Shown one piece after another: positions 25,701 through 28,700 of a stretch of DNA of 64,000 bases. The position numbers were made by a program. Each line of letters opens with the position of its first letter. Position 1 is the stretch's first letter. Location of the stretch: assembly GCF_988242995.1 (NCBI RefSeq), contig NZ_OZ547043.1; one strand, given 5' to 3'.

Positions 25701-28700
25701 TACCTGTCGGGCGAGCGCCTTTTAGATCAGAAGTCAACGTTACATGGTCGGCATCTGTCGTAGCGCTTCCCCCTTCCGAATAGAGCCACGGAATGGTTCC
25801 CTGGAAAATATTGGTTTCGCCGCTTTCGACCCAGGCGCTTTCTTCCGCCAGCGCCACAGGTGCCACACAATAACCTGCCAATGCCAGCGCCAATGCGATC
25901 CGGGTCAGACCGCGTCTTTTATCCTGCTTCATTGATGCTCTCCTTAATGAACCTTCAGCGACTGGCCGACTGGCCTTACGCCAATCTTATTTTTTGGTAT
26001 ACAGCACGCGTAAACCGTATCCCTGCAAGCCATCTCCCGCTTGTGCGCCATAGGTTTGCGCTGCTTCGCGGTTAGTGGCCGGAATCACAATGTCCTCATT
26101 GGAAGTGTTCGCCTGTGCACCCACTTCACCATTGATGCTCTTGCCGGTAAATTCCCACTTGTAGTCGTACTGCGCCATCTCTTCGTCAGTCAGTTTTTCG
26201 ACCTGCTGGAAGACACCGTCTTTATTGCTGTCACGCCACAAAACAAATCGATAAGTGTTGTTGAGCGGCAGCGGTTCTTTATCTTTACCTATCAGGTTGC
26301 TGGGTTTAGCTGCCCCCACACGATAGATAAATGCATTTAGCCCACCAATTTCTGCCCCGAGGAAAGTGACATCCACATAGTTACTGTCGTCGTAGGGCGC
26401 AGCTTTTGCTTTCCAGCGATAGGTGCCGGGTAAGGTACTGGAGAGGGTGACAGTGCCCTTTTCTTTATCTTGTTTAGCGATAAAAACGCAGGGGTTGTCG
26501 GTCGAGCAAGGCTTGTTGGTTAACGTCACTCGTTTGTCCTGCGCGTCGTAAAGCTGCGGCGTGAGGTTATCTTCCGGCAGCGCATCGCCATTGCGGTCGG
26601 TGTTATCGCCAAAGCTGTCGGTTACATCGAGATCCATCACCACACCATCAACGCCATCTGCCTGAGCGCTGGCTTCGTGGCTGTGGTTGTTCTCTTCCGG
26701 CACGTTCGCGATGTTATTAACAATCAACTCTATTTTACGGTCCTGCTGAACGGTGATTTCCACCACGCCAGAGTTCTGTCGGTTGCCCTTTTCATCTTCC
26801 AGTGCCAGACGTACTCGCCAGGTATTGAGTTTTTCTTGTTCGGCTTTGTCAGAGCTGTACTGCCAGGCGGGCAGCACCAGGTTCCAGTGGTTATTGTTAC
26901 CCTCTGTCAGGGTATTCTCTTTGATAACCGGCATAACCAACGTGCGGGCAGCATTGTTTTTCGCCTGCCATGACGCAGCGACAATTTTGTAGTGGTGGTT
27001 GATAAGCGCGTTAATGGTCCATTTACATTTTTCCAGCCCGACGGCCGCTTCGGGAGTGTCCTTAATGACGCACTCAGGGTGCTCGTTGGTGGCATCCGCT
27101 TTTAACCACAGGGTGACATCAAGCGGATCTTTTTCTTTGTATTCCAGAACAATAAAGTTATTACGCTCAACAAAATCATGACGACTGCCCATCAACGAGT
27201 GAGCCGCTTTCACTTTATCGCTATCCAATTGATCTTTTAGCGGAACGCCGAACTGATAATTAAGAGTGGCATTAATGCTGACATCGCTGTTATCTCCGGT
27301 CCCCGCTTTATAGTCCGCCCCAACGGTTAGTAATGGCACCGGTTGATAATTCAGTCCAAGTGTTACCGCGTAGGGATCTTTCTCCAAATTATCCGTACCA
27401 AAAAGGGCGACTTCATCGCCGTAATATTGCTCGAAGACAACTTTGCCCCCCAGTTGCGGATAAGAAGGTAACCAGGCTTCGGCACGAATATCCCAGCCGC
27501 GCGCAGGGCGTTCTTCATAAAAGTCGAAATCTTCAGAGTCTTTCCAGTCAGAAAGCGGATGATAATAGTTGCCAGAGAATTTTAAATAATCAGTCCACGC
27601 TTCGCCGCCTAAACCTAAACGGCGATGTCCTCGGGTAAAATCATAATCATAAAATATATTTCCGCCCAATAACCATTCATCAAAATTATGTCTTACCCCA
27701 AGACCAATATTCCCGATTGTACGATCTTCTTTTCGTTGCGCAGAAAATTGACTGAAATAAACAGTGGTTTGATTATCGTACCAGGGAACAAAATAATCGA
27801 TGGAACTACCATCCAGATCGCCGTCCTGGCCAATGGAGAGGTTCGAACGGACCTTACCGTAGGGAGAGAGTGTGTCTTCAATATAAGATTGTGCGGTTGA
27901 GGTGATTTGACTTTGCAGATAGCTTCTGGCCTGAGATTCCAGCGCCTCAGGGGTCAAGTTTTCAAACCCTTGCGTGGCGGAGTTGATGACGTAATCGGCT
28001 CCGCGCTCTTTCAGCGATTTACCCTTGTTGGTTTGTTCATCCTGCTGTGCTGCCTGGCTACCTAAATCAGGTAACGATTCGTTTTGCTTAACATTTATCT
28101 CTGGTGCCGCGAAAGCAGCACCAGAGATAAATGTTAGCATAATACAGCGTTTCCATCGCAGCATGCACTTTCCCTGTGACAATGATACAGTCAAAAATAA
28201 GCTTTAATATTGTATCCCTGATTATTCAGAAAGGCATGTCATAAAGAATAAATATATTCTTAATTATTTAAATTAGTGATTTCACTCAATTACATTAGTT
28301 ATTCCACTAATAACAGATTGTTTTACCATTCACATATTAAATATAAATGATAAAACAATATATTCACATGATATTAAGCAATAACAAATTCAACGCGTTT
28401 TTTAGATATTAAATCGTGCCCATGTTGGCAGAAATAATCCACAGCACCACAAGCTTTTAACACTTGTAACGGCTGATGACACTCAGGGCAAAGTGCCTGG
28501 ACGGTAAAGTCTTTGTCGCAAGTTGCACAGTGGGCAGTCTCGCCATTGCGTTCGAGAGGGGTTTTGCAGGTTGGACAGTTGAGTGCCATAAATACTCCTC
28601 GCGCGTTATTCGGTTTCCCTTTCCGTGTGGAAAGGGAAACCAGATAAGTGATTACTTACTTTTCTTGATATGCTTCATCAGGCGCTTACGCTTGCGCATC

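What the first reader, a model, noticed from the sequence alone, without database searches (positions are those of the whole stretch)
25987..28194. SinH-like inverse autotransporter: start-codon ambiguity
The ORF track opens at a TTG (28194), but an in-frame ATG at 28164 with a purine-rich RBS-like tract yields a canonical signal peptide (MLRWKRCIMLTFISGAAFA). A further in-frame ATG 24 nt downstream (MLTFISGAAFA...) would give a signal peptide with no positively charged n-region. The choice changes predicted export. N-terminal barrel followed by Ig-like passenger domains and a C-terminal tip is the inverse (type Ve) topology, i.e. the passenger is C-terminal.
Basis: partly seen in the sequence, partly recalled or inferred. 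Interest (0 to 1): 0.45.

Follow-up and report, generated by a model that had tools for sequence, protein, structure and literature searches.

The report
sinH start codon: ordinary, already resolved

Summary

The ambiguity is not biological; it comes from the longest-ORF listing.
- ATG 28164 and the AGGGA motif 6 nt upstream are invariant in 7 divergent E. coli alleles, and the motif recurs as AGG(G)A-type variants in Salmonella, Citrobacter and E. albertii.
- In four of those loci an in-frame stop lies 3-6 codons upstream with no alternative start.
- TTG 28194 is not conserved and sits among indels.
- ATG 28140 is replaced by ACG or ATT in other alleles.
- RefSeq starts sinH at this ATG. The 725-aa form is on 345 contigs, the 717-aa form on 3, and the TTG forms on none.

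The protein is an equivalog-level SinH/IatB: a 19-aa Sec signal peptide, an inverse-autotransporter barrel (Pfam E 2.8e-109), and three Ig-like passenger domains (AF2 pLDDT 80; top fold hit intimin D00-D0). It sits in the known yfgJ-sinH-sinI-ratA island.

Verdict: interpretation supported, gene already known, low interest.

The parts
25987..28164 (-). sinH (iatB) coding sequence, 725 aa plus stop, starting at ATG 28164
   Evidence: RefSeq/PGAP CDS WP_001389735.1 maps to exactly this start. NCBIfam inverse_SinH equivalog covers the full length. The exact 725-aa protein is on 345 contigs.
28171..28175 (-). Shine-Dalgarno-like AGGGA, 6-nt spacer to ATG 28164
   Evidence: CACAGGG is invariant in 7 E. 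coli alleles. AGGGA, AGGA or AGGAA occupies the same place in Salmonella, Citrobacter and E. albertii. Anti-SD duplex is -6.4 kcal/mol.
28108..28164 (-). Sec (signal peptidase I) signal peptide MLRWKRCIMLTFISGAAFA, predicted cleavage AFA|AP
   Evidence: n-region has net charge +3, the h-region is 10 aa, and -3/-1 are A/A (heuristic). The same n/h/c layout is seen in 120 family representatives. 101 of 118 start at this column and none extends upstream.
28192..28194 (-). TTG that opens the ORF track; not a real start
   Evidence: No SD (-0.1 kcal/mol). Not conserved: TCA, TAA or ATC context in other alleles, with indels between it and the ATG. The 735-aa product is absent from 15 billion predicted proteins.
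   Evidence: The 731-aa product is absent from the collection. It lies directly upstream of the SD-like motif.
28138..28140 (-). in-frame internal ATG (codon 9, Met9); not the start
   Evidence: Replaced by ACG in O145 RM13514 and by ATT in APEC E16002. Residue 9 is Met in only 46 of 118 representatives. This start would give an 11-aa leader with no charged n-region. The 717-aa form is on 3 contigs only.
27157..27978 (-). inverse-autotransporter beta-barrel domain (residues 63-336)
   Evidence: Pfam PF11924 IAT_beta E 2.8e-109. Residues 101-343 align end to end with the invasin 4e1t and intimin 4e1s barrel crystal chains.
25990..27156 (-). C-terminal passenger (residues 337-725): three beta-sandwich (Ig-like) domains, at about residues 350-484, 497-602 and 609-724
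28165..28373 (-). AT-rich (24% GC) intergenic region upstream of sinH, presumed promoter/regulatory region
   Evidence: No sigma-70 consensus promoter was found by the scan. LeuO-dependent activation of iatB is reported in Goh 2019 (PMC6714894).
24955..25932 (-). sinI: SinI-family autotransporter-associated protein, with a signal peptide and no barrel; its C-terminal domain is paralogous to SinH residues 619-722
   Evidence: NCBIfam partner_SinI E 1.4e-100. SinH residues 619-722 hit the same model at E 4.3e-21. ZirU_fam hits at E 6.5e-7.
16792..24834 (-). ratA-like giant repeat protein (2680 aa), third gene of the island
   Evidence: Nine BIg21 + InvE_AD repeats, E 4.7e-211 and 3.9e-282. The same gene order is found in Salmonella, Citrobacter and E. 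albertii.

Best explanation
The gene is sinH (also called iatB), a type Ve (inverse) autotransporter of the yfgJ-sinH-sinI-ratA island.

Translation starts at ATG 28164, giving a 725-aa precursor.

- Residues 1-19 (MLRWKRCIMLTFISGAAFA) form a standard Sec signal peptide, cut by signal peptidase I after AFA. This step is inferred.
- Residues about 63-336 form the 12-stranded intimin/invasin-type outer-membrane barrel. This is shown by homology to solved barrels.
- The C-terminal 389 residues, three Ig-like domains, are threaded through the barrel and displayed on the cell surface as an adhesin and biofilm factor. The fold is shown here by prediction; surface display comes from the literature.

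The TTG at 28194 is only the first NTG after an upstream stop, so it reflects the longest-ORF rule. ATG 28140 is a non-conserved internal Met codon within the signal peptide's hydrophobic region.
For: Start codon:
- RefSeq places the CDS start at the base equivalent to 28164 in the 99.9%-identical strain ST2747, and at the homologous ATG in six alleles of 80-94% identity.
- In the alignment of the 5' regions, CATGCTGCGATGGA and CACAGGG are invariant. The TTG 28194 codon and the sequence between it and the ATG vary and carry indels. ATG 28140 becomes ACG or ATT.
- In O145 RM13514, Salmonella, Citrobacter S-77 and E. albertii an in-frame stop lies 3-6 codons upstream of the homologous ATG, with no alternative NTG.
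- 101 of 118 family representatives start at this column and none extends upstream. Position 9 is Met in only 46 of 118.
- The exact 725-aa form is on 345 contigs, the 717-aa form on 3, and the 735- and 731-aa forms on none.
- Anti-SD pairing is -6.4 kcal/mol for this ATG, against -0.1 and -3.3 for the other two.

Identity and architecture:
- NCBIfam SinH equivalog at 1487 bits, full length.
- IAT_beta E 2.8e-109.
- PDB invasin and intimin barrels at E 4e-73 and 1e-64.
- Passenger AF2 pLDDT 80, with intimin D00-D0 and invasin among the best fold matches.
- Conserved synteny in four genera.
- Surface localisation and biofilm phenotype of IatB (Goh 2019, PMC6714894). AF2-based three-Ig-domain description and protective SinH-3 antigen (Xing 2023, PMC9937491).
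Against: - There is no direct experimental mapping of the initiation codon: no ribosome profiling, toeprint or TSS data were available for this locus.
- SignalP could not be run, so the signal-peptide call rests on n/h/c heuristics and family conservation.
- The SD score is not exceptional, since 18% of random positions reach -6 kcal/mol or lower.
- Local mRNA folding does not discriminate the candidates.
- Pfam does not recognise Ig domains in the passenger (Big_1 E 0.3).
- The first structure prediction, made with a shallow alignment, failed (pLDDT 51).
Confidence: 0.93

Rival explanations
1. Translation starts at TTG 28194 (or TTG 28182), giving a 735- or 731-aa precursor with an extended n-region. 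Export and the mature protein would be unchanged.
For: Both codons are in frame, with no intervening stop, in this allele and in several close alleles. The extended leaders would still have an n/h/c layout.
Against: - There is no SD upstream of TTG 28194 (-0.1 kcal/mol).
- TTG 28194 is absent in O145, 2013C-4282 and VE-T9, and indels break the frame in the alignment.
- Four orthologous loci have a stop 3-6 codons upstream of the ATG.
- None of 118 representatives extends upstream.
- The 735- and 731-aa sequences are absent from the 15-billion-protein collection.
Confidence: 0.02
2. ATG 28140 (Met9) is the start, or a secondary start, producing a 717-aa form with an 11-residue uncharged leader that is poorly exported or not exported.
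For: ATG is a strong start codon. Some gene callers chose it (GenBank BDY73693.1 and two others; also P0052 and P0064). A weak GGAAA lies 10 nt upstream (-3.3 kcal/mol).
Against: - The codon is ACG, ATT, CTN and others in many alleles. Met is at this position in 46 of 118 representatives.
- It would discard the conserved R/K-rich n-region, which is under evident conservation (M-x-R/Q-W-x-R).
- It would leave an 8-aa h-region.
- The NCBIfam equivalog model begins at Met1.
Confidence: 0.04
3. SinH is not, or not only, a self-displaying adhesin. Its barrel acts as the translocator of a ZirTSU-like two-partner system that secretes SinI and/or the RatA-like protein, with the SinH passenger resting in the periplasm (Heinz et al. 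2016 model).
For: - The downstream SinI and RatA-like proteins have signal peptides but no barrel.
- The SinI C-terminal domain is paralogous to the SinH tip (E 4e-21), and SinI hits ZirU_fam.
- The gene order is conserved across four genera.
- The model was proposed in PMC4943183 and left open in PMC6714894.
Against: - Antisera to the C-terminal passenger stain IatB on the surface of intact recombinant cells.
- IatB gives biofilm without the downstream gene (PMC6714894).
- Immunisation with the SinH C-terminal domain protects mice (PMC9937491).
- No secretion data for SinI or RatA were found.
Confidence: 0.15

Closest known systems
SinH / IatB of E. coli (RefSeq WP_001389735.1; IatB of strain SMS-3-5, Goh et al. 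2019) and SinH (SivH) of Salmonella enterica CS54 island
   Same: The sequence is identical to the RefSeq protein, and the exact sequence is on 345 contigs. It is 73% identical to the main Salmonella cluster P0079. It has the same length, the same start, the same barrel plus three-domain passenger, and the same yfgJ-sinH-sinI-ratA neighbourhood.
   Different: Nothing of substance. This allele has Met at residue 9, where the largest E. coli cluster representative has Leu.
Intimin (EaeA) and invasin (InvA), the archetypal type Ve inverse autotransporters
   Same: The barrel is homologous (E 1e-64 and 4e-73 to 4e1s and 4e1t). The order is the same: N-terminal barrel, C-terminal Ig-like passenger. 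The best fold match of the passenger is intimin D00-D0.
   Different: - There is no LysM domain (no Pfam hit).
- The passenger has only three domains, and they are not recognised by Big_1.
- The intimin NCBIfam score of 252 is far below the 1400 cutoff.
- The tip domain is shared with SinI rather than being a demonstrable intimin-type C-type lectin.
ZirT-ZirS-ZirU of Salmonella (inverse autotransporter with co-encoded secreted partners)
   Same: An inverse-autotransporter gene is followed by barrel-less, signal-peptide-bearing genes homologous to its passenger. SinI hits ZirU_fam at E 6.5e-7. The analogy is drawn in PMC4943183 and PMC6714894.
   Different: Partner secretion through SinH has not been shown. 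IatB works as a biofilm factor without its partner.

Membership tests
Inverse autotransporter (type Ve secretion) | IAT beta-barrel domain (PF11924) located N-terminal to the passenger | tested here: met
   PF11924 at E 2.8e-109 over residues 63-336. Residues 101-343 align with the invasin and intimin barrel crystal chains at E 4e-73 and 1e-64.
Inverse autotransporter (type Ve secretion) | N-terminal Sec signal peptide | tested here: met
   Heuristic n/h/c analysis: n-region MLRWKR (+3), a 10-aa h-region, AFA|AP. The layout is conserved in 120 representatives. SignalP itself was not available.
Inverse autotransporter (type Ve secretion) | C-terminal passenger built of Ig-superfamily (Big-like) domains | tested here: met
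Inverse autotransporter (type Ve secretion) | Passenger exposed on the cell surface | not testable with these tools
   Literature only: immunofluorescence of IatB on intact cells (PMC6714894).
SinH (NCBIfam NF033423, equivalog) | Full-length score above the curated cutoff (999 bits) | tested here: met
   1487.3 bits. Residues 1-725 cover model positions 1-730 of 730.
SinH (NCBIfam NF033423, equivalog) | Genomic context: followed by sinI and a ratA-like gene, between the yfgJ-like zinc-ribbon gene and xseA | tested here: met
   The same order is seen in Salmonella, Citrobacter and E. albertii.
Intimin (NCBIfam NF033627) | Score above the 1400-bit cutoff; LysM periplasmic domain | tested here: not met
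   252.5 bits, covering the barrel region only. No LysM hit in Pfam. SinH is a relative of intimin, not an intimin.
Intimin/invasin | C-type-lectin-like receptor-binding tip domain | tested here: inconclusive
   The whole-passenger fold searches returned only Ig-like matches. Xing 2023 describes a 'lectin-like' element in domain 3.
ZirT-like two-partner inverse autotransporter | Co-encoded barrel-less partner homologous to the passenger | tested here: met
   SinI matches partner_SinI at E 1.4e-100 and ZirU_fam at 6.5e-7. SinH residues 619-722 match the SinI model at E 4.3e-21.
ZirT-like two-partner inverse autotransporter | Partner secretion depends on the barrel protein | not testable with these tools
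   No data found. Posed as an open question in PMC6714894.

The most novel reading that the evidence does not exclude
The SinH barrel doubles as the outer-membrane translocator for SinI and/or the 2680-aa RatA-like protein, forming a ZirTSU-like 'two-partner inverse autotransporter'. The shared SinH/SinI C-terminal domain would act as the docking element. A much less likely extra twist is that alleles carrying Met9 (ATG 28140) also make a leaderless, non-exported isoform. Neither reading is excluded by the sequence evidence, and the first is already a published hypothesis.
Probability: 0.15. Interest if true: 0.5.

Novelty: already known. Interest (0 to 1): 0.07.

Why it matters
It matters little beyond annotation hygiene. 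SinH is a studied ExPEC fitness factor and vaccine antigen. The correct start (ATG 28164, 725 aa) is already in RefSeq and in the curated NCBIfam model. All plausible starts except the non-conserved internal ATG yield the same mature protein.

The check is useful in three ways.
- It shows that a longest-ORF track over-extends genes. The same happens at der, 13 codons.
- It shows that a few GenBank records (717 aa) truncate the signal peptide.
- It shows that N-terminal proteomics would not resolve such cases.

The biologically open question at this locus is whether SinH secretes SinI or RatA, not where it starts.

Tried and rejected
1. SD strength alone. ATG 28164 scores best (-6.4 kcal/mol), but 18% of random window positions do as well, so it is supportive only.
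2. Local mRNA folding and accessibility around the four candidates. It does not discriminate: P(unpaired) is 0.46-0.49 for all.
3. Sigma-70 promoter scan, to see whether a TSS would exclude the TTG. No consensus promoter is found in the 209-bp, 24%-GC intergenic region. I looked by eye at TATCAT (28188-28183) as a possible -10 element, but it is not conserved in alignment A1, so I dropped it.
4. First AF2 run of the passenger, with 43 close homologues. pLDDT was 51 and the model unusable. It was rescued by adding distant relatives and SinI paralogues from the representative search.
5. Pfam at E up to 10 on the passenger. There was no significant Ig domain.
6. Shea et al. 2022 (PMC8853676), which might hold transcript mapping. 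The paper is not held in the library.
7. Lipoprotein reading of Cys7. Rejected by inspection of the sequence, because WKR-C is not a lipobox.

Full report
**What is in the sequence**

On the minus strand, the ORF listed as 25987..28194 (735 aa, TTG) is real. Reading the 5' end base by base shows four features.
- An in-frame TAA at 28206-28204.
- TTG at 28194-28192.
- ATG at 28164-28162, preceded by CACAGGGAAAGTGC. The AGGGA lies at 28175-28171, with a 6-nt spacer.
- An in-frame ATG at 28140-28138.

One in-frame candidate was overlooked: TTG at 28182-28180.

**Which start is used**

Six independent lines of evidence point to ATG 28164.

1. Annotation. In strain ST2747 (99.9% identical over 2.8 kb), RefSeq starts sinH at the base equivalent to 28164 (WP_001389735.1, 725 aa). 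In six further E. coli alleles of 80-94% identity, the annotated start is the homologous ATG.
2. DNA conservation. An alignment of the region from the yfgJ-like stop into sinH was made for the 7 alleles.
   - The block CATGCTGCGATGGA and the CACAGGG just upstream are invariant.
   - The TTG 28194 codon is replaced in O145 RM13514, 2013C-4282 and VE-T9.
   - The stretch between it and the ATG carries indels that would break the frame.
   - ATG 28140 is ACG in O145 RM13514 and ATT in APEC E16002.
3. Cross-genus evidence. In O145 RM13514, Salmonella (L008), Citrobacter sp. S-77 (L009) and E. albertii (L010), an in-frame stop lies only 3-6 codons upstream of the homologous ATG, with no alternative NTG in between. 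All eleven loci keep an AGGGA, AGGA or AGGAA motif at the same distance.
4. Protein N-termini. Of 118 near-full-length family representatives, which stand for more than 10,000 member sequences, 101 start at the column of Met1 and none extends upstream. The residue aligned to Met9 is Met in only 46.
5. Exact-sequence look-up. The 725-aa product is on 345 contigs. The 717-aa product is on 3 contigs, all GenBank submissions (BDY73693.1 and two others). The 735- and 731-aa TTG products are absent from about 15 billion predicted proteins.
6. Family model. The curated NCBIfam SinH equivalog aligns end to end with the 725-aa form: residues 1-725 against model positions 1-730 of 730, at 1487 bits with a cutoff of 999.

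Anti-SD pairing favours the same codon: -6.4 kcal/mol, against -0.1 for TTG 28194 and -3.3 for ATG 28140. This is weak evidence on its own, because 18% of random positions reach -6 or lower. Local mRNA folding does not discriminate the candidates.

**Consequences for export**

The following is a heuristic anatomy; SignalP was not available.
- The 725-aa form has the n-region MLRWKR (+3), the h-region CIMLTFISGA, and the c-region AFA with Ala at -3 and -1. Pro sits at +2, not +1, so this is a standard 19-aa signal peptidase I substrate.
- Both TTG extensions only lengthen the n-region. They would yield the same mature protein, APEINVKQ....
- Only ATG 28140 removes the charged n-region, leaving an 11-residue leader.

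For the same reason, N-terminal proteomics of the mature protein cannot identify the start.

**What the protein is**

- Barrel. Pfam finds the inverse-autotransporter barrel at residues 63-336 (E 2.8e-109). Residues 101-343 align along their whole length with the crystallised barrels of invasin (4e1t, E 4e-73) and intimin (4e1s, E 1e-64).
- Passenger at the sequence level. Pfam finds nothing significant in the C-terminal 389 residues (Big_1 E 0.3). This agrees with Heinz et al. [quoted passage not shown]
- Passenger family size. Only 56 cluster representatives among 1.84 billion match at E of 1e-3 or better, and most are fragments.
- Passenger structure, model. A first AF2 run with 43 close homologues failed (pLDDT 51). 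After adding the distant relatives and SinI paralogues, the model reached pLDDT 80.1. It shows three beta-rich domains, at about residues 350-484, 497-602 and 609-724.
- Agreement with the literature. This matches the published AF2-based description of a barrel plus three Ig-like domains (Xing et al. 2023, PMC9937491).
- Intimin comparison. There is no LysM domain, and the intimin model scores 252 bits against a cutoff of 1400. The protein is a relative of intimin, not an intimin.

**Context**

The gene lies in the known island between der and the yfgJ-like zinc-ribbon gene on one side and xseA and guaB on the other. It is followed by two genes.
- sinI (24955..25932) has a signal peptide and no barrel. 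Its C-terminal domain is paralogous to SinH residues 619-722, at E 4e-21. It also gives a weak ZirU_fam hit.
- A 2680-aa RatA-like protein carries nine BIg21 + InvE_AD repeats.

The same order is found in Salmonella, Citrobacter and E. albertii. The locus is present in 1787 of 5426 complete E. coli genomes. The 209-bp upstream intergenic region is 24% GC, with no consensus sigma-70 promoter. Goh et al. 2019 report that iatB is activated by LeuO overexpression, that IatB is surface-located, and that it mediates biofilm formation (PMC6714894).

**How it works**

1. Sec export of the 725-aa precursor and cleavage after Ala19 (inferred).
2. Barrel insertion by BAM/TAM (family knowledge; Heinz 2016).
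3. Hairpin-type export of the C-terminal passenger through the barrel (family knowledge).
4. Surface display of three Ig-like domains that mediate adhesion and biofilm (literature).

The main unresolved alternative is the Heinz et al. proposal that SinH, like ZirT, is the translocator of a two-partner system for SinI and the Rat-like protein. The gene layout and the SinH/SinI paralogy fit this proposal. Against it stand the surface staining of the passenger, partner-independent biofilm formation, and the protective anti-SinH-3 response.

**Verdict**

The 'ambiguity' is an artefact of the longest-ORF rule. The gene, its start and its architecture are already known and correctly annotated in RefSeq. 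Interest is low.

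Noticed in passing
window 25993-26340 (SinH residues 609-724) and 24955-25932 (sinI): The SinH tip domain and the C-terminal domain of the downstream SinI protein are paralogous (NCBIfam partner_SinI hits SinH residues 619-722 at E 4e-21). SinI also weakly matches ZirU_fam. This is the ZirTSU-like layout already noted in the literature. Whether SinH secretes SinI is untested.
   Followed up: partly
window 16792-24834 (-): A 2680-aa RatA-like protein with nine BIg21 + InvE_AD repeat pairs. It has a signal peptide and no barrel. It is the third gene of the island and is conserved downstream of sinI in Salmonella, Citrobacter and E. 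albertii.
   Followed up: partly
window 28165-28373: The intergenic region upstream of sinH is 24% GC, against 52% for the window. No sigma-70 consensus promoter was detected. This is typical of a silenced, horizontally acquired locus, and LeuO activation is reported for iatB.
   Followed up: partly
window 30125-30163 (-): The ORF track also over-extends der. The listed ORF opens at GTG 30163 (503 aa), whereas RefSeq der is 490 aa, starting at the base equivalent to 30124 ([16 protein letters not shown]...). This is the same longest-ORF artefact as at sinH.
   Followed up: partly
GenBank BDY73693.1, BDY81243.1, BDY86268.1 (same allele as window 25990-28140): Three GenBank records annotate this exact allele from the internal ATG (717 aa), which truncates the signal peptide. 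This is a probable start-site misannotation in those submissions.
   Followed up: yes
window 25990-27156 (passenger): The passenger family is very narrow. Only 56 of 1.84 billion 50%-identity cluster representatives match at E of 1e-3 or better. A few long proteins (for example P0139 at 1616 aa and P0143 at 902 aa) share only the first passenger domain, which suggests domain shuffling among enterobacterial inverse autotransporters.
   Followed up: no
window 46253-46867, 11894-12017, 33363-33454, 54286-54395: Rfam gathering-level hits elsewhere in the window: IS128 and ryfA sRNAs, STnc490, sroE, and the iscRS stability element. These are ordinary features of the E. coli core genome.
   Followed up: no
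L001 10578-12049 (strain ST2747): In the closest complete genome, der is annotated as frameshifted, whereas the window carries an intact der ORF. This is probably a sequencing error in that assembly.
   Followed up: no
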